Shown here: positions 15,834 to 22,428 of the stretch, piece by piece
How positions within the stretch are numbered: the first letter of the stretch is position 1
Layout of the letters: the number at the start of each line of letters is the position of its first letter
Assembly: GCA_048885525.1 (NCBI GenBank)
Contig: JBHLLP010000016.1
Span: 1-64,000, forward strand
Direction: 5' to 3'
Source of the DNA: Candidatus Hermodarchaeota archaeon
GTDB taxonomy: Archaea > Asgardarchaeota > Lokiarchaeia > Sigyniarchaeales > SOKP01
DNA: 64,000 nt
Notes under the pieces: model-generated
Database searches by the model: none
Told to the model about the DNA's origin: nothing
What the model saw: the letters and a program-made list of their open reading frames with translations, nothing else
Program-made: the position numbers and the translations under genes

Positions 15834-18806
15834 TTGACAACTCAAGACCCATTAGATCATCAAGAATCATTAGACACTGAAAAAATTGAGAGCTTAATTT
15901 TAAATGGGTATAATGAAAAAGCTGCTGAAGAAATTTTTACTATTGTAGAAAATTATGATAATCATTCTGATAAAGAACTTATTTATCGAAGCCTTAGTTT
16001 ATTAAATCTGATTTGTGATAAATCTCCAGCAATTTCATTGAGAGCAATCAAAAATATAATTCATTTTATAAATGATTCTGATTCTTGGATAAGATTAGTT
16101 TCATTAGAAATATCATATCAAATAAGTTTGTTTAGACCTAACTTGTTACTTGAGTTATTACCTAAAATTCGAGGAAGATTATATGATCAAGACCCCGCCG
16201 TGAGGAGATTAACTGTAAAGATCATTGGTAATCTGATTTTATCCTTACATATCGATTTGGGAGAAATACAGGAAATTATTGAAGAATATACAGAAAAATT
16301 AATGGATAATGATTGGAAAGTAAAGCTCAATGTAATCAAAACTATTCAGAAGATCTTAAATCAGGATTATAAAAAAATTAGGAATTTAGAACCATTATTA
16401 TCAATGGTGATCATTAATTTAAGAGACGAAGATGATGATGTTGCTAGAGCTGCAGCAGAACTTTTAAAGATTCATGGGACATACTTTTTGACAAAGGAAA
16501 AGATCCTTTATATTTTATTAAATCTTCTCTATAACGAGGAAAATAGGGTTAAAGAGCTAATTATTTGGTTATTTGGAGAAATTGGAAAGGAAAAATCTCC
16601 AGAAATTATATCAATAATTCCAAAATTAATTAATTTACTAAAAGAAAAAGATTATCGTATTCAATTAAAAGTAATTGAAGCACTTGTTAATATTGGTGAA
16701 AATAATTTTGATCAAATTTGGGCAAATCTTATACATTCCATTTTAGAAGCCAGTGATTACAATTATAGAAATTCATTAATAAATGCAATATTTCATCTAT
16801 CCCGGAAGAATATAACTGAAATATTTCCTTATTTATTTGAAGAACTGGAAAATCCATCTGAAAACATCAGAGAAGGTATTGCTCTTGTATTTCAACGCTT
16901 ATTCGAAGAGTACCAGATTGAATTAGAAAATGAAATTACTAAAATTTTATATCAATTAGATTCACGTTTTTGGAGAGAAAGAAAAAAAACTATAAATCTC
17001 CTCCAACATATTTGTTTCATTTTGGAAAATAAAAAGATTGCTGTCTGGATTACAATTGAATTAAACAATACTTTAAATATTGAAAAGGATCCAGAAGTGA
17101 AAGCAGAAATTATTTATACACTAAAGAATATTAAATCTAATTTTCCAGATATTGATGGAGCTATCGAAAGAATCAATAATGAATTATCACTATTTCAGAA
17201 AAGAATTAACGAGTTCCAGAAGATTCCTGCCCAATTTAGAGAAAAACTGAATTCTTATATAGAAAATTTCAAATTTAATGATACAGAGATTCAGTTAAAT
17301 GAAAAATACAATAAAATATTGAAAAAAATCAAAAAATTCTCATTATTAATTAATAGATTTGAATACAAAAGGTTAGCTTTTGATTTAATCGAAGAATGGG
17401 AAGAAACTAGGGTTCAAATAATTGAAGAATTAAGTATTATTAAAGGCTTCATCTCTGAAATATGTGAAGAGAAAAAAGCCGAATTTGTTTCTAATTTAAA
17501 AGAAAATATTAAGAAAATAAATAATCGTATTGATGTTCTAAAAGCAGAATTTGATTATGTGAAAGAAACTAAGTTTGAAGTTAATCTAGGCAAACGTTTG
17601 TCTACACTTGGATCTGATTATATTCAAGAAGATAACCTGGACAATATCACCCAAATTAGAAAAAAACTGTTCAAAATGGATGGTGATATCAGAGAAATAT
17701 TGATAGCAAATGTAGAGTTTAATGAGATATTTAAAAACCTATTACAAAAATGGGTTGCAACTAAAATTGAAATCCAAGAATATTTGAATGATTTAGATCA
17801 TCAAATTAGATTAATGAAAGATAAATTAATTGAATATAAAGAAGTAGAACCTATAAGTAATATTCAGATTAGATCGAAAATGATTAATGGGATTAGTTCT
17901 GAACTTAATTTTCAACTCCTTCAAAGTCATATTCAGACTATTATTACAGAGAGAATTGAAGGAATGAAAAAATACAATGATGAATTTAGTGATCTTATTT
18001 CTAAACTAGACCTTTTATTAAAAAAAGATGAATTTTCAGATGTTAAGAAATTAGTAGAAATGAATTCAACACAAATTCAAAATTATATTGAAGATACTGA
18101 AAAACAAATTAATAATATCATAGGAAATGAAAAATTATTTGAAGATAATAATATTTTTAATTTATATATAAGACCTTATATCAATAAGTTTAATTCATCT
18201 AAAGAATTATTGATAAATCGATTAAAAACATTCAATAGAAAAGCTAAAAATAAACTTTACCTAAATCAGTTAAAATACTACGCGAAAATTCTGAATCCGA
18301 TTAAACTTGATTTATTATCATCTTATATTGACTTAGATATTGAGCGATTAAAAGATCTTATTCTAAAATTTATAAATAAAAATAAAATCAGTGCAAAAGT
18401 AATTAATGACAAACTTTACTTTCAGCAGATAGAATCTGAAATGCCAGATTCAAAAGAAATTCTCTTTTTTAAAAATATAAAGACGATAGGTAACGAAATT
18501 TACCTAAACTTTAAATTATCTAATCCATCAAATTTTGATTTCAAGGATTTACAAATATCTCTTAAGATACCCTCTTATCTTAATTTTCAAAGAAAAGAAA
18601 GCTTTCCAAAATATCTACAAATAAATGAGTTAAAACCAGGGAAAAATTTCCAATTCAATTATGTGCTTAAAGTAGATAAACAAAAAGAACTTAAAAAAAA
18701 TCTTTTTGATCCTTCAGCTGATGAAATTAAGCTTGACTTGTATTATAGAGATCAATTCAATATTGCTCGGAAGACGACTAAACATATTGATCTCTTCATT
18801 CCTTAA
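15834..18806 (+). CDS. HEAT-repeat protein with coiled coil, PCI-like winged helix and C-terminal Ig-like domain
   Basis: D.D..VR/IR HEAT repeats in the first ~430 aa; IKLDLLSSYIDLDIERLKDLILKFINKNKISAKVINDKLYF; FKLSNPSN...ELKPG beta-sandwich pattern. Confidence 0.75.
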   Translation: MTTQDPLDHQESLDTEKIESLILNGYNEKAAEEIFTIVENYDNHSDKELIYRSLSLLNLICDKSPAISLRAIKNIIHFINDSDSWIRLVSLEISYQISLFRPNLLLELLPKIRGRLYDQDPAVRRLTVKIIGNLILSLHIDLGEIQEIIEEYTEKLMDNDWKVKLNVIKTIQKILNQDYKKIRNLEPLLSMVIINLRDEDDDVARAAAELLKIHGTYFLTKEKILYILLNLLYNEENRVKELIIWLFGEIGKEKSPEIISIIPKLINLLKEKDYRIQLKVIEALVNIGENNFDQIWANLIHSILEASDYNYRNSLINAIFHLSRKNITEIFPYLFEELENPSENIREGIALVFQRLFEEYQIELENEITKILYQLDSRFWRERKKTINLLQHICFILENKKIAVWITIELNNTLNIEKDPEVKAEIIYTLKNIKSNFPDIDGAIERINNELSLFQKRINEFQKIPAQFREKLNSYIENFKFNDTEIQLNEKYNKILKKIKKFSLLINRFEYKRLAFDLIEEWEETRVQIIEELSIIKGFISEICEEKKAEFVSNLKENIKKINNRIDVLKAEFDYVKETKFEVNLGKRLSTLGSDYIQEDNLDNITQIRKKLFKMDGDIREILIANVEFNEIFKNLLQKWVATKIEIQEYLNDLDHQIRLMKDKLIEYKEVEPISNIQIRSKMINGISSELNFQLLQSHIQTIITERIEGMKKYNDEFSDLISKLDLLLKKDEFSDVKKLVEMNSTQIQNYIEDTEKQINNIIGNEKLFEDNNIFNLYIRPYINKFNSSKELLINRLKTFNRKAKNKLYLNQLKYYAKILNPIKLDLLSSYIDLDIERLKDLILKFINKNKISAKVINDKLYFQQIESEMPDSKEILFFKNIKTIGNEIYLNFKLSNPSNFDFKDLQISLKIPSYLNFQRKESFPKYLQINELKPGKNFQFNYVLKVDKQKELKKNLFDPSADEIKLDLYYRDQFNIARKTTKHIDLFIP

Positions 18807-18944
18807 AATAACAAGATTTTTGATTGAATTTTTTCATTAATTAATCTCAAATATTCAAAAATTTAATAATTTATATGGAAAAGATTAATATATCCATCTA
18901 TACTATTTAAAACTACTTAAATTGATTAATATAATTACAAGAAT

Positions 18945-18950
18945 GAGGTG
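18945..18950 (+). promoter_or_regulatory. Shine-Dalgarno site GAGGTG of selD1
   Basis: GAGGTG 4 nt before ATG 18955; the same motif precedes selD2. Confidence 0.75.
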
Positions 18951-18954
18951 AAGA

Positions 18955-20020
18955 ATGCAAGAATTAGAGAGTTATCGATTGACACTGCAAACGAAACTTT
19001 TTGGTTGAAACTGTCTCAGTTACACTTGCGACGGCAACATACTGTAAGCTTTTTAGCGAGAAATTAGAGAAACTACTTGCCAATACAGGATTAAATGGTG
19101 ATATTGAAGATTCCGCAATTATTCCTGTACCAAATACTAATCTTGTCATGGCTAAAAATATAGATATCTTTACTCCAATTATAGATGAACCAGATATCAT
19201 GGGAGAAATTGCCGCAGCTAATGTTACTAACGATATTTCCGCGCTAAATGTTCCCGAAATTTCTGGAATGCTTGTTTTCCTAGGATTAAAGAAAAAAATG
19301 CCTATGTACATAGCAGAAGGAATACTAAAGGGAATCAAAAACTTTATGGAAAACAAGTTAAATTCTAAAATTCTTGGAGGTCATACTATTTTCAGCCAAT
19401 GGCCATTGATTGGGGGCGAAGCCTCTGGTTTCGTTGAAAAGGATAAAATTATCAAAAAAGATTATGTAGAAGAAGGAGATAAAATAATTCTAACAAAACC
19501 AATTGGAAATCAAGCAATAATGGCAGCATACAGACTTCAAAAAAACAATCCTGACCTTTTAGAATCTTATTCTACAACCGAAATTGACACTTCTATCGAT
19601 ATAGCTGTGAAATTAATGATATCACCCCTTCAAGATGTTGTAAAGACCATTCACACTTACAAAGATATGTCATTCATTCATTCGATGACAGATGTTAGTG
19701 GTTTTGGTCTTGCTGGGCATCTGAGAGAAATGCTTCAAAATTCAGGTCTTTCTGCTATAATTGAGAAGATCCCTAGTATTAGACTGACAAGCGACTTAGC
19801 TTATGAATTTGGTTATAAATATGATGAATGTGAAATGCCTGAAACTGCTGGGGGGATGCTTTTATCTGTTGATCACGAATATGCTGAGGAATTCTCACAG
19901 AGACTTAATAGTAAATATGGCGTAAAAAATTGGACTGTAGGTACGATCGATAACATCAATAAGCCCAAATATGTTCGTGTTTCTGAAAATGTTGAACATA
20001 TTGAAATAACTAAAATTTAA
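18955..20020 (+). CDS. selD: Selenophosphate synthetase 1, selenoprotein (UGA 19006-19008); join(18955..19009,19041..20020), 344 aa
   Basis: MQELESYRLTLQTKLFG-U-NC|KLFSEK... after removal of 31 nt; EDSA, IDIF, NVTND, GGHT, LTKPIG, TDVSGFGL and ETAGGML motifs intact; SECIS downstream. Confidence 0.88.
19010..19040 (+). other. Putative 31-nt BHB (tRNA-type) intron in selD1 mRNA
   Basis: Central helix GUUG(19004-07)/CAAC(19035-38); bulges AA^A(19008-10) and AU^A(19039-41); inner helix CUGUC/GACGG; excision restores the frame. Confidence 0.8.
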
Positions 20021-20092
20021 CGATGTCAATGAAATAAGCAAAAACACATTATTGTGGTAGTTTATTGAGAATACTGTTGCAAAACAGCATCG
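20021..20092 (+). promoter_or_regulatory. Eukaryote-type SECIS element of selD1
   Basis: AUGA...GA core, helix AAUAAGC/GUUUAUU, apical AAAAA with mini-stem CACA/UGUG, basal CGAUG/CAUCG, side hairpin CUGUU-GCAA-AACAG. Confidence 0.85.
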
Positions 20093-20297
20093 AAAATATT
20101 TGAAAATATTATGAATTATCTTATTTTTAAAAAAATTTCCTATTCTGTGTGAAATACTAAGTTATATCTTTATTATTAATTATCGATATTTTCGATAAAA
20201 AATATCGAAAAGATTAATAAATTAGAAATATTCCCTCTTATACCATAAAAATTAAAATGAGAACTTAAGAAAAAAAATAACAGAAGAACAACCCGAT

Positions 20298-20456
20298 TGG
20301 TACCATCCTTATTAAGTAGAAGTGATTCAATTAGAAAAAGAGTTTAAAAAGGAGAGATTACCAGTATTATCAATATCTAACGAATATTCCTAAGAGCATA
20401 AAGCATCTCTGATAACCAGAATTGAAGCATTCTTAGAAATGTTAAAAAAAATTTAA
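20298..20456 (+). pseudogene. Remnant of 2-hydroxyacyl-CoA dehydratase subunit C-terminus
   Basis: WYHPY*VEVIQLEKEFKKERLPVLSISNEYS*EHKASLITRIEAFLEMLKKI*; TRIEAFLEML is the family C-terminal signature; two internal TAA. Confidence 0.65.
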
Positions 20457-20526
20457 TTAAAAAAAACAGTATAATATTATATACTGAAATATTTGAATCA
20501 GATTTAATTATTAATGTGAGGTGAAA

Positions 20527-21552
20527 ATGGAAAAACCAGAGTATAGGCTGACCCTAGACGTTAAGATACACGGATGATCATGTAAGCTTGGACAAAACGA
20601 TTTGAATGACTTATTAGTTAGAGTAGGATTAGCAGGAGACATTGAAGATGCTGCTATTATACCAATACCTAATAGCGATCTGGTTCTTGTTAAAAATATC
20701 GATGTTTTCACACCAATTATTGATGAACCCGAACTCGCTGGTGAAATTGCGGCATGCAATGTAACTAATGACATTTTTGCGATGAATGTGCCTGAGATTT
20801 CAGGTATGCTTGTATTTCTTGCAATTAGTACAAGAACACCCATGGAAGTTGCCGAAGGTATTTTAAGAGGAATAAAGTATTTTATGGAGAAAAAAATTAA
20901 TTCTCGAGTGGTTGGTGGACACACGATTTATAGTGAATGGCCATTAATAGGAGGAGAAGCATCTGGATATGTCGAAAAAAGTGCTATTATCCAAAAGCAA
21001 GGTGTAAAAAAAGGAGATAAATTAGTTTTAACCAAACCGATAGGATTGCAAGCAATAATGGCATCATATAGGATTCTGAAAGATTTTCCAGAAATGTTAG
21101 AACACTATTCAGCTGAAGAACTTCAAAAGTCAATTGATCTTGCCATAAAAATTATGACAACTCCAAATCAAGATGTTGTAAAAACTATTCATTCTTACAA
21201 GGATTTTTCATTCATTCATGCCCTAAGTGATATCACTGGATTTGGCTTAGGGGGACATACGGCTGAAATGCTGCAAAACTCAAATCTATCAGCTATAATT
21301 GAGACTGTTCCATCAATTAAGTTTTCTGAACAGTTATCGCATGAGTTAGGGTATGCTTTTGATGATTGTAAGTGCCATGAAACTGCAGGGGGTATGCTCC
21401 TGGCTGTTGATCCTACAAAAGTTGAAGAATTTACAAATAGGCTTACAATTAATAAAATATCAAACTGGATTATTGGTACAATTAATCAACAAAAACCAGG
21501 TTTGGTTCAGATTTCAGAGCAAGTTCAAAACATTGAAATTACAGAAATTTAA
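20527..21552 (+). CDS. selD: Selenophosphate synthetase 2, selenoprotein (UGA 20575-20577), 341 aa
   Basis: GAGGTG SD; MEKPEYRLTLDVKIHG-U-SCKLG continues in frame into ORF 20602; SelD motifs; SECIS downstream. Confidence 0.93.
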
Positions 21553-21553
21553 A

Positions 21554-21623
21554 GATGTTAATGATATAAGCTTAAACATTTCATATGGCTGCTTATTGAA
21601 AATTCCACTTGCGAAGTGGCATC
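21554..21623 (+). promoter_or_regulatory. Eukaryote-type SECIS element of selD2
   Basis: AUGA...GA core, helix AUAAGC/GCUUAU, apical AAA with CAU/AUG mini-stem, basal GAUG/CAUC, side hairpin CCACUU/AAGUGG. Confidence 0.85.
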
Positions 21624-21636
21624 AAAAATGAAACTA

Positions 21637-22428
21637 TTATCTTTCTTTAATTTTTCCATTAAGTTTTGTGATAATTTCTCTAATTTCATTAAGAGCGTTA
21701 TCTATTAATTTTTCACCGTGTTCTACATTAAAGGCGGTTATTGAAACCTCTACCTCTACTGATAAGCCAATTCTAGGATGGGTTTTAATCCAAAGTTGAG
21801 GATACTTTTTCTCTAATTCATTTGTATATGCTGCAATCTGGCTCTCTCCAACACCTGAAAAAAGAAAACCTTTCTCAATAAAATTTCCTTGTTGTTCTTT
21901 TAGAATTGGTATAATAATATTTCTAAACATAGCTTTTAACTCAGCAGGTACACCAGGTAAAATAAAAATTGTAATATTTTTTTCAGTAAGCTTAACGCCT
22001 GGAGCAGTTCCTACTGTATTAGGTAGCGGAATAGAACCTTTCGGAAGATATGCCATTTTTTCTCGTTCTTTAGTCATACCTTCGAGTTGTAATAGTCCTT
22101 TTTTATGAGCTCGTTTGTAAGTCTTCTCAATAGTTTTATACGCATGATGATCTAGCTCTAAATTCCTATTTAATCCATATGCTATTCCCTGCAAAGTCAT
22201 ATCGTCAAATGTGGGACCGAGTCCTCCAGATGTTATAATAATATCTGGTTTACGTTGTAAAATTTGTTTTAATGTCGTCGAAATTACTTCAAGCTCATCT
22301 CCAATAGTAATAATCCTTTTAACTTGATGTCCATACTTAGTAATTCTTTTTGCCATCCAATTAGAATTTGTATCTTGAGTCTTTCCAATAAGGATTTCAT
22401 TTCCAATCATTAATAATTCAATTATCAT
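21637..22428 (-). CDS. CinA-like molybdopterin-binding domain protein
   Basis: IGNEILIG...DTNS, SGGLGPTFDDMT, N..GTAPG and LPGVP.E motifs. Confidence 0.9.
   Translation of the reverse strand: MIIELLMIGNEILIGKTQDTNSNWMAKRITKYGHQVKRIITIGDELEVISTTLKQILQRKPDIIITSGGLGPTFDDMTLQGIAYGLNRNLELDHHAYKTIEKTYKRAHKKGLLQLEGMTKEREKMAYLPKGSIPLPNTVGTAPGVKLTEKNITIFILPGVPAELKAMFRNIIIPILKEQQGNFIEKGFLFSGVGESQIAAYTNELEKKYPQLWIKTHPRIGLSVEVEVSITAFNVEHGEKLIDNALNEIREIITKLNGKIKER

What the first reader, a model, noticed from the sequence alone, without database searches (positions are those of the whole stretch)
18955..19060. Candidate BHB-spliced mRNA intron immediately after the Sec codon of selD1
Seen: selD1 (SD + ATG 18955) reads ...KLFG-UGA-NC, then goes out of frame and stops at TAA 19045, while the SelD body is in the +1 frame. 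The paralog reads GUSCKLGQNDLNDLLVRVGLAGDIEDAA. Removing exactly 31 nt gives GUNCKLFSEKLEKLLANTGLNGDIEDSA, a gap-free alignment. The insertion folds as a bulge-helix-bulge: central helix G19004-C19038, U-A, U-A, G19007-C19035; bulges A-A^A (19008-10) and A-U^A (19039-41); inner helix CUGUC(19011-15)/GACGG(19030-34); outer helix G19003-C19042 plus an imperfect CUU/AAG extension. Cutting after the second bulge nucleotide on each strand (the EndA rule) excises 19010-19040 and restores the frame. Established: archaeal splicing endonuclease cuts BHB motifs, and archaeal protein-coding introns are rare (cbf5 is the classic case). Inference: this is a spliced selenoprotein mRNA in an Asgard archaeon. 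I am not aware of a description, but novelty needs a literature check.
Basis: partly seen in the sequence, partly recalled or inferred. Interest (0 to 1): 0.97.

Follow-up and report, generated by a model that had tools for sequence, protein, structure and literature searches.

The report
tRNA-type intron splits Asgard selD gene
One of two selenophosphate synthetase genes of this Asgard (Lokiarchaeia-type) archaeon is broken, one base after its selenocysteine codon, by a 31-base insert with the RNA shape that the tRNA-splicing enzymes cut. Its messenger RNA is therefore very probably spliced, which published work documents for only one archaeal coding gene (cbf5).

Summary
selD1 starts at ATG 18955 and has its Sec codon at 19006-08. 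A 31-nt insert (19010-19040) throws the SelD body (19041-20020) out of frame. Removing the insert gives G-U-N-C-K, as in about 40 uninterrupted orthologues.

The insert is real DNA: two independent read-derived contigs carry it without a difference.

Two further selD1 genes carry an insert at the same site. One is from another species of the genus and one from a JGI metagenome contig. Both inserts are also exactly 31 nt but have different sequences. All three form a 4-bp helix flanked by two 3-nt bulges plus an 8-9-bp inner hairpin, in the register that restores GUNCK. Fewer than about 1 in 10,000 shuffled inserts do as well. One central-helix pair covaries (U-A to C-G).

The interrupted genes show normal purifying selection and keep their SD, UGA and SECIS. 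The genome has two EndA paralogues and RtcB.

The same genus carries 29-30-nt inserts in the P-loop codon of its single-copy aIF2-gamma gene, so mRNA splicing must work there.

Caveats:
- No RNA data were available.
- The outer helix is a single G-C pair, so this is a relaxed BHB.
- Most orthologues lack the intron.

No paper describing this was found. This scan has already noted similar 30-31-nt mRNA introns in other Asgard genomes.

The parts
18945..18951 (+). Shine-Dalgarno-like GAGGTGA upstream of the selD1 start codon
   Evidence: Read from the sequence. The same GAGGTG plus spacer plus ATG is conserved in all orthologues.
18955..19009 (+). selD1 exon 1: MQELESYRLTLQTKLFG-U plus the first base of the Asn codon
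   Evidence: It aligns with the N-terminus of selD2 and of about 40 uninterrupted orthologues.
19006..19008 (+). Sec codon UGA. U and G lie in the central BHB helix, and A is the first bulge base.
   Evidence: It sits at the position of the Sec/Cys of the G-U/C-x-C-K motif in all orthologues.
19003..19042 (+). Relaxed bulge-helix-bulge motif. Outer pair G19003-C19042; central helix 19004-07/19035-38; bulges 19008-10 and 19039-41; inner helix 19011-15/19030-34 plus 19017-19/19026-28; loop 19020-25.
   Evidence: Pair check. Shuffle test 4.5e-5. The local 52-nt MFE equals the central helix, 5' bulge and inner helix. The same geometry occurs in two other sequences.
19010..19040 (+). 31-nt intron, cut after the second nucleotide of each bulge. 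In this genome any register up to 19015-19045 gives the same product.
   Evidence: The same cut rule reproduces the tRNA-Met intron i(41,32) of this genome. DNA contigs support the insert.
19041..20020 (+). selD1 exon 2: (A)AC TGT AAG ..., i.e. N-C-K plus the SelD body of 324 aa, ending at stop TAA 20018-20
   Evidence: TIGR00476 selD scores 155 bits against a cut-off of 125. There are no stops or frameshifts. dN/dS is 0.08-0.10 against the nearest orthologues, and there are 0 unique departures at 153 near-invariant columns.
20021..20092 (+). 3'-UTR SECIS-like element (CGATG-tca-ATGA ... GA ... extra hairpin ... CATCG)
   Evidence: Read from the sequence. It is nearly identical in intron-less orthologues (reverse-strand loci). 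It fits the description of the SPS lokiSECIS with an additional stem in PMC4989117. No Rfam match. Not tested further.
20521..21552 (+). selD2, an uninterrupted Sec-containing paralogue (HGUSCK), 62% identical to selD1
   Evidence: TIGR00476 scores 181.9 bits.

Best explanation
The 31 nt at 19010-19040 are an archaeal bulge-helix-bulge intron inside the coding sequence of selD1, a Sec-containing selenophosphate synthetase.

Proposed mechanism:
1. In the primary transcript, exon bases G-GUUG-AA pair with the intron's 3' end CAAC-AU and exon base C19042.
2. This forms a 4-bp helix flanked by two 3-nt bulges and stacked on an 8-bp intron hairpin.
3. The heteromeric (alpha-beta)2-type splicing endonuclease EndA cuts after the second nucleotide of each bulge.
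4. RtcB joins the exons, and probably circularises the intron.
5. The mature mRNA reads GGU UGA AAC UGU AAG and encodes ...LFG-U-N-C-K..., the active-site loop of SelD. The Sec codon is decoded with the 3'-UTR SECIS.

Shown here: the geometry, its recurrence with different sequences at the same site, the intactness of the gene and the selection on it, and the presence of the enzymes.

Inferred: cleavage, ligation and translation of the spliced product.
For: 1. The geometry and the frame restoration are exact.
2. Three independent assemblies carry a 31-nt insert at the identical site: G000, G021 (L010/L042) and the JGI contig (L068). Only about 48% of intron positions are shared, yet in all three the central helix is 4/4 paired, the bulges are AA^N and AU^A, and the inner helices are 8-9 bp built from different bases.
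3. Central-helix pair 16-48 changes U-A to C-G together with the synonymous third base of the Gly codon.
4. In G021 and the metagenome contig there is no flanking repeat. Only the BHB-predicted cut gives the conserved Asn-Cys.
5. Shuffled introns reach the observed BHB in the exact register in 3.5e-5 to 1.1e-4 of trials.
6. The insert is supported by read-derived contigs of two runs with 0 differences.
7. The interrupted genes have no other defect. dN/dS is 0.05-0.10 against 0.048-0.133 for intron-less pairs. There are 0 and 2 unique departures at 153 near-invariant columns, within the range 0-4. SD, ATG, UGA and SECIS are kept.
8. The genome has two EndA paralogues, both over the TIGR00324 cut-off, and one RtcB. 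Asgard EndA is reported as the broad-specificity (alpha-beta)2 type with the L1 loop (PMC5829648).
9. The same cut rule reproduces a tRNA intron of this genome.
10. The genus's single-copy aIF2-gamma gene carries 30-nt or 29-nt inserts, with stops or a frameshift, in its P-loop Lys codon in 6 of 52 species, G000 included. Two more G000 genes are split inside conserved motifs by 30-31-nt BHB inserts. An essential gene cannot be dead in six species, so this splicing must operate in the genus.
Against: No RNA evidence was available: no RNA run holds the locus.

The outer helix is one G-C pair plus a U.G after a mismatch, so the 3' bulge is not closed by a stable helix. The fold is not more stable than shuffles (z about -0.1), and the 71-nt MFE of G000 and G021 is a different structure.

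About 40 of 43 distinct selD1 genes lack the intron, as do all 20 selD genes checked in other families. The nearest relatives of each carrier are intron-less. If each gain is recent, the selection test says little about the time since insertion.

An intact paralogue (selD2) lies 500 bp downstream, so loss of selD1 could be tolerated.
Confidence: 0.82

Rival explanations
1. selD1 is a recently inactivated pseudogene. The 31 nt are a disabling insertion, tolerated because selD2 supplies selenophosphate.
For: An intact Sec-containing paralogue lies next door. Most orthologues lack the insert, and each carrier's closest relatives are intron-less. A recent insertion would not yet show relaxed selection.
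Against: Three lineages carry an insert of the same length at the same nucleotide, and each forms a BHB in the exact restoring register (about 1e-4 per insert by shuffling). There is no second lesion in 344 codons in any carrier. dN/dS and departures at conserved sites are normal. Similar inserts sit in the essential single-copy aIF2-gamma gene.
Confidence: 0.06
2. EndA does cut the BHB, but as a regulatory or decay device rather than constitutive splicing. Cleavage without efficient ligation would down-regulate selD1, or splicing would be conditional, for example on ribosome occupancy at the adjacent UGA or on selenium status.
For: The Sec codon is part of the central helix and first bulge. 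The intron lies only 54 nt from the start codon, so ribosomes and EndA must compete for it. A spliced and an unspliced paralogue sit in tandem. BHB cleavage in an mRNA 5' UTR is reported for Haloferax (PMC7714728, title and abstract only).
Against: Nothing in the sequence calls for regulation. The exact restoration of the active-site loop and the purifying selection on both exons argue that the ligated product is what selection sees. Comparable introns in aIF2-gamma and other genes have no UGA nearby.
Confidence: 0.08
3. The insert is crossed during translation, either by ribosomal bypassing from the TGT at 19012 to the TGT at 19043 (as in T4 gene 60) or by a +1 frameshift, without RNA processing.
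For: In G000 the pentamer ACTGT flanks the insert on both sides, giving matching take-off and landing codons. A hairpin follows the take-off site.
Against: G021 and the metagenome contig have no matching codons at the 5' side: TGA ATC TAT... and TGA ACC TGT T.... No stop codon follows the putative take-off codon. A frameshift inside the insert would place 10 foreign residues between Cys and the essential Lys. Neither model explains the two 3-nt bulges spaced by exactly 4 bp, nor the covarying helix.
Confidence: 0.02
4. The insert is an assembly or sequencing artefact.
For: The source is a metagenome-assembled genome. Related species without the insert occur in the same samples (joints that skip 31 nt in contigs with 9-13% other differences).
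Against: Logan contigs of two runs span the insert with 0 differences at depth 16-22. Two other assemblies from other projects carry an insert of the same kind.
Confidence: 0.01

Closest known systems
BHB intron of the cbf5 (pseudouridine synthase) pre-mRNA in Crenarchaeota (Watanabe 2002; Yoshinari 2006; Yokobori 2009, PMC2738675)
   Same: Both are short introns (16-44 bp in cbf5, 31 nt here) inside a coding sequence. Both have a BHB-like, not fully canonical, motif, linked in cbf5 to a heteromeric splicing endonuclease. Both disrupt an active-site codon or loop. Both are distributed patchily among close relatives, implying gain and loss. Both are too short to encode a homing endonuclease.
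   Different: The gene family differs (selD/SPS, a selenoprotein) and so does the phylum (Asgard, Lokiarchaeia-type). The intron sits one base after a recoded UGA. Its length is fixed at 31 nt in all three instances. There is no experimental proof of splicing here, whereas cbf5 splicing was shown by RT-PCR and in vitro cleavage.
Non-canonical archaeal tRNA introns with relaxed BHB (HBh') motifs, cut by (alpha-beta)2 or epsilon2 EndA (Marck and Grosjean 2003; PMC5829648). Asgard tRNA genes are heavily interrupted (bioRxiv 10.64898/2026.10.13.758758).
   Same: The central 4-bp helix, the 3-nt bulges, the cut after the second bulge nucleotide and the strong intron hairpin are the same. The size is similar to several tRNA introns of this genome (30-33 nt). 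Repeated appearance at sites whose exon sequence can supply half of the motif is also shared.
   Different: The host RNA is an mRNA, with no tRNA body to supply an outer helix, and the outer helix here is a single G-C pair. Splicing has to restore a reading frame and competes with ribosomes.
Unconventional cytoplasmic splicing of HAC1/XBP1 mRNA in eukaryotes (IRE1 cleavage; RtcB ligation in metazoa)
   Same: Both involve a small frame-changing intron (26 nt in XBP1, from my own knowledge) removed from an mRNA by an endonuclease that recognises RNA structure. Ligation is by a tRNA-type ligase; RtcB can splice HAC1 (reference list of PMC5829648).
   Different: The endonuclease is IRE1, not the tRNA-splicing endonuclease. 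It recognises twin stem-loops, not a BHB. Splicing there is a stress-regulated switch. No homology is implied.

Membership tests
Archaeal BHB intron (EndA/RtcB substrate) | Central 4-bp helix flanked by two 3-nt bulges on opposite strands | tested here: met
   4/4 pairs and 3-nt bulges in G000, G021 and the metagenome contig.
Archaeal BHB intron (EndA/RtcB substrate) | Inner helix h' closing the 5' bulge | tested here: met
   8, 9 and 8 bp with one defect, built from different sequences. It is the local MFE in all three.
Archaeal BHB intron (EndA/RtcB substrate) | Outer helix h of at least 2 bp closing the 3' bulge (strict hBHBh') | tested here: not met
   Only G-C, then a U/U mismatch, then U.G. 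The motif is therefore the relaxed HBh' class, known for substrates of (alpha-beta)2 and epsilon2 enzymes.
Archaeal BHB intron (EndA/RtcB substrate) | Cutting after the second nucleotide of each bulge yields a functional product | tested here: met
   It gives GGN UGA AAC UGU AAR = G-U-N-C-K, identical to the uninterrupted orthologues. The rule reproduces the tRNA-Met intron of the same genome.
Archaeal BHB intron (EndA/RtcB substrate) | Structure kept through sequence change (covariation) | tested here: met
   Central-helix pair U-A to C-G, and G-C to G.U; the inner helices are entirely different. With only three sequences the shuffle statistics are weak.
Archaeal BHB intron (EndA/RtcB substrate) | The host encodes a splicing endonuclease able to cut relaxed motifs, and an RtcB ligase | tested here: met
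   Two EndA paralogues (C2:50308-50904 and C9:105770-106387), both over the TIGR00324 cut-off, and RtcB at C56:14072-15379. The (alpha-beta)2 assignment rests on PMC5829648 and was not tested here.
Archaeal BHB intron (EndA/RtcB substrate) | Spliced junction and excised (circular) intron present in RNA | not testable with these tools
   No RNA run holds the locus. The one read-laying run showed DNA contigs only.
SelD / selenophosphate synthetase (Sec form) | AIR-synthase-related SelD body | tested here: met
   TIGR00476 scores 155 bits against a cut-off of 125 for exon 2 alone.
SelD / selenophosphate synthetase (Sec form) | N-terminal G-(U/C)-x-C-K loop with in-frame UGA, plus a SECIS | tested here: met
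   The loop is present only after removal of the 31 nt. The SECIS-like 3' UTR is conserved with the orthologues, judged by inspection only.

The most novel reading that the evidence does not exclude
The selD1 intron is one member of a genus-wide population of 29-33-nt BHB micro-introns in protein-coding genes. These include the essential single-copy aIF2-gamma gene and genes for an AMP-phosphorylase-like enzyme and a JAMM protease. They appear and disappear recurrently at the same 'proto-splice' nucleotides in different species.

On this reading, EndA/RtcB splicing of messenger RNAs would be routine in these Asgard archaea, and some still unknown mechanism would spread introns of a fixed size to sites whose exon sequence can supply half of a BHB.
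Probability: 0.5. Interest if true: 0.88.

Novelty: new member of a known kind. Interest (0 to 1): 0.78.

Why it matters
Published work documents endonuclease-dependent splicing of an archaeal coding sequence for one gene, cbf5, in Crenarchaeota. Here the same mechanism is needed to make a selenoprotein that is itself part of the selenocysteine machinery, in the archaeal group closest to eukaryotes.

Standard annotation truncates this gene twice over, at the UGA and at the intron, so surveys of Asgard selenoproteomes would miscall it. Neither paper read here mentions an intron (PMC4989117, PMC11227280).

The recurrence of a 31-nt intron at one nucleotide in three separate selD1 lineages, together with the parallel case in aIF2-gamma, offers a tractable system. 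It can be used to ask how BHB introns arrive in and leave protein genes, and how splicing is reconciled with coupled translation.

Tried and rejected
- **Fold stability.** Thermodynamic significance of the fold was z -0.07 and -0.12, so this measure was not informative.
- **RNA evidence.** No RNA holder was listed for the locus, and read laying returned DNA contigs only.
- **Rfam.** Nothing at E up to 1 over 18800-21750.
- **tRNASec link.** Mariotti 2016 reported a 31-nt T-loop intron in Loki tRNASec. The tRNASec of this genome (C8 c66342-66434) has no intron, so no relation could be examined.
- **Pair counts.** The count of structure pairs on three sequences is underpowered, and G021's inner helix is in a shifted register.
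- **Genome-wide search.** A de novo search for further mRNA introns (BHB motif plus ORF rescue) gave as many hits at shifted control positions as at BHB candidates: 530 against about 500, with no peak at 30-32 nt. It cannot count introns.
- **Alternative start.** A start at TTG 19001, giving a Sec-less SelD, was rejected. It has no SD, and in G021 the frame is closed by TAA four codons before the Cys-Lys.
- **Bypassing.** Rejected because the flanking ACTGT repeat exists only in G000.
- **Other families.** selD in 20 genomes of other families all read uninterrupted HGUSCK-type loops.

Full report
**What is in the sequence**

selD1 begins with SD GAGGTGA (18945-51) and ATG 18955. It reads MQELESYRLTLQTKLFG, then UGA (19006-08), then AAC UGU. 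It then runs out of register into TAA 19045-47. The SelD body is open in the +1 frame from 19046 to TAA 20018-20. It scores 155 bits on TIGR00476, above the cut-off of 125. The paralogue selD2 (20521-21552) reads ...HGUSCKLGQ... without a break. Deleting 31 nt from selD1 gives a gap-free alignment to it.

The pentamer ACTGT occurs at both ends of the insert. In this genome the deletion can therefore be placed in six registers with the same result.

**The insert is real DNA**

Read-derived Logan contigs of two sediment runs span it with no difference: X1 record 3 at depth 22 and X3 record 10 at depth 15.8. Contigs in the same runs that 'skip 31' differ at 9-13% of their other positions. They belong to related species that lack the insert, not to an intron-less allele of this organism.

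**Comparative evidence**

The genome belongs to a genus of 54 GTDB species of Promethearchaeota (Lokiarchaeia-type) MAGs. In about 40 distinct selD1 orthologues the sequence GGN TGA AAY TGY AAR is contiguous. Twenty selD genes from other families of the order and class also read an uninterrupted HGUSCK-type loop.

Two more genes are interrupted at exactly the same nucleotide:
- G021 (JBHLRA010000136.1): GGCTGAA|TCTATGCGCATAATTCATGCGTAAGCAGTAT|ACTGTAAA
- JGI contig Ga0114923_10015540: GGCTGAA|CCTGTTGCAGATTGAACTGTACCAGCAGTAT|ACTGTAAA

Both inserts are exactly 31 nt. Neither has the flanking repeat, so only one cut pair gives the conserved Asn-Cys, and it is the pair the BHB predicts.

**Structure**

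All three sequences form the following:
- a central helix G(U/C)UG with CA(A/G)(C/U);
- a 5' bulge AA^N and a 3' bulge AU^A;
- an inner helix of 8-9 bp with one defect, built from unrelated sequences.

In the central helix the second pair is U-A in G000 and C-G in the other two. The exon side of that pair is the synonymous third base of the Gly codon. The first pair is G-C against G.U.

In a 52-nt local window the minimum-energy fold of each sequence is exactly the central helix, the 5' bulge and the inner helix, at -9.1 to -10.5 kcal/mol. The outer helix is only one G-C pair followed by a mismatch and a U.G pair. The motif therefore belongs to the relaxed HBh' class, and whole-region folds are not more stable than shuffles.

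With the exons held fixed, shuffled inserts match the observed BHB in the exact register in 3.5e-5 to 1.1e-4 of 200,000 trials. A much laxer definition is met in 0.12-0.17% of trials.

The cut rule (after the second bulge nucleotide) reproduces ARAGORN's intron i(41,32) in tRNA-Met of this genome.

**State of the gene**

Each interrupted gene keeps its SD, ATG and UGA, an otherwise open 344-codon frame, and the SECIS-like 3' UTR shared with intron-less orthologues.
- G000's protein has no unique departure at 153 near-invariant columns, and G021's has two. Intron-less genes range from 0 to 4.
- Pairwise dN/dS to the nearest intron-less genes is 0.05-0.10. Intron-less pairs of similar divergence give 0.048-0.133.

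**Evolutionary pattern**

On the selD1 tree the three carriers fall in three separate well-supported clades (SH-aLRT 98-99), each with intron-less sisters. Either the intron is old and was lost precisely many times, or 31-nt introns were gained three times at one site. I cannot decide between these.

If the intron is old, the gene has been under purifying selection while interrupted, so it must be spliced. If the gains are recent, three random insertions that each form a BHB in register are not credible. Either way the insert behaves as an intron.

**Machinery and context**

The genome encodes two EndA paralogues of about 200 aa and one RtcB. Asgard EndA has been classed as the (alpha-beta)2 type with the L1 loop that confers broad specificity (PMC5829648).

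Following leads from other first-stage notes on this genome, I confirmed two further splits in G000:
- An AMP-phosphorylase-like gene is split within DKHST|GGVPGNK by a 30-nt BHB insert (C6:109044-109073).
- A JAMM gene is split within HSHPGF|KVMMSHID by a 31-nt one (C7:62562-62592).

More telling is the only aIF2-gamma gene of this 99%-complete genome, which has a 30-nt insert with an in-frame stop in the P-loop Lys codon. Across the genus the same nucleotide carries a 30-nt insert in G000, G003, G025 and G001, and a frame-shifting 29-nt insert of another sequence in G030 and G063. An essential single-copy gene cannot be dead in six species. Removal of such inserts from mRNA must therefore work in this genus. 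This is inference, but strong.

**Rivals**

- A pseudogene is possible in principle, because selD2 is intact. It does not explain the recurrence, the register or the covariation.
- Bypassing or frameshifting fails in G021 and the metagenome contig, and does not explain the bulge geometry.
- An assembly artefact is excluded.
- A regulatory use remains open and untested. The UGA is part of the motif, and the intron lies 54 nt from the start codon.

**Literature**

Searches of the held library found no paper joining BHB introns with selenophosphate synthetase, and none on mRNA BHB introns in Asgard archaea. The two Asgard selenoproteome papers do not mention an intron in selD. Yokobori 2009 states that pre-mRNA splicing had been confirmed for no archaeal gene other than cbf5. 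Subscription journals are not covered, so this is absence in what I could search.

This scan has already noted similar 30-31-nt BHB inserts in protein genes of other Asgard genomes. I did not test those.

**Verdict**

This is a genuine, very probably spliced, BHB intron in a selenoprotein mRNA. It is a new member of the kind represented by cbf5, in a lineage and gene where it has not been described. It still lacks RNA proof.

Noticed in passing
G000:C19:33102-33131 (minus strand); also G003:C5, G025:C68, G001:C204, G030:C39 and G063:C63 (loci L092, L110-L114): The single-copy aIF2-gamma gene is interrupted in the P-loop Lys codon (GHVDHG|K|TTL). The insert is 30 nt with in-frame stops in four species, G000 included. 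In two others it is a frame-shifting 29-nt insert of a different sequence. The other 46 species with a match are uninterrupted. The central helix is AUGG/ACAU (3 of 4 pairs) in the 30-nt type and AUGG/CCAU (4 of 4) in the 29-nt type.
   Followed up: partly
G000:C6:109044-109073 (+): A 30-nt BHB insert with an in-frame stop splits the DKHST|GGVPGNK phosphate-binding motif of an AMP-phosphorylase-like gene. The central helix is UAGC/GUUA, the inner helix is 9 bp, and there is no outer pair.
   Followed up: partly
G000:C7:62562-62592 (+): A 31-nt frame-shifting BHB insert splits the JAMM motif HSHPGF|KVMMSHID of an MPN-family protease gene. An uninterrupted paralogue lies on C37.
   Followed up: partly
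L010 (G021) and L068 against their nearest intron-less relatives L041, L015, L028 and L054: the last 20 nt of exon 1: The last 20 nt of exon 1 (AACGAAACTATTTGGCTGAA) are identical in G021 and the metagenome contig. G021's closest relatives differ there at four synonymous positions, while its exon 2 matches its own clade. This could be a short co-conversion tract from lateral transfer of the intron, or chance.
   Followed up: no
window 20021-20092 and 21553-21625: Both selD genes are followed by a SECIS-like element with a GATG/CATC closing helix, an AUGA...GA core and an extra 3' hairpin. This resembles the distinct 'SPS lokiSECIS' described in PMC4989117. No Rfam family matches it.
   Followed up: no
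window 15834-18806 (+): A 990-aa ORF directly upstream of selD1 is rich in HEAT-like repeats and coiled coil. Another first-stage note flagged it as adaptin/coatomer-like.
   Followed up: no
G000 genome, ARAGORN output: Several tRNA genes carry introns of 30-33 nt (Met 32, Thr 30, Ala 30, Ser 33), the same size class as the mRNA inserts. ARAGORN found no tRNA in the 64-kb window, although another first-stage note mentions T-loop introns there.
   Followed up: no
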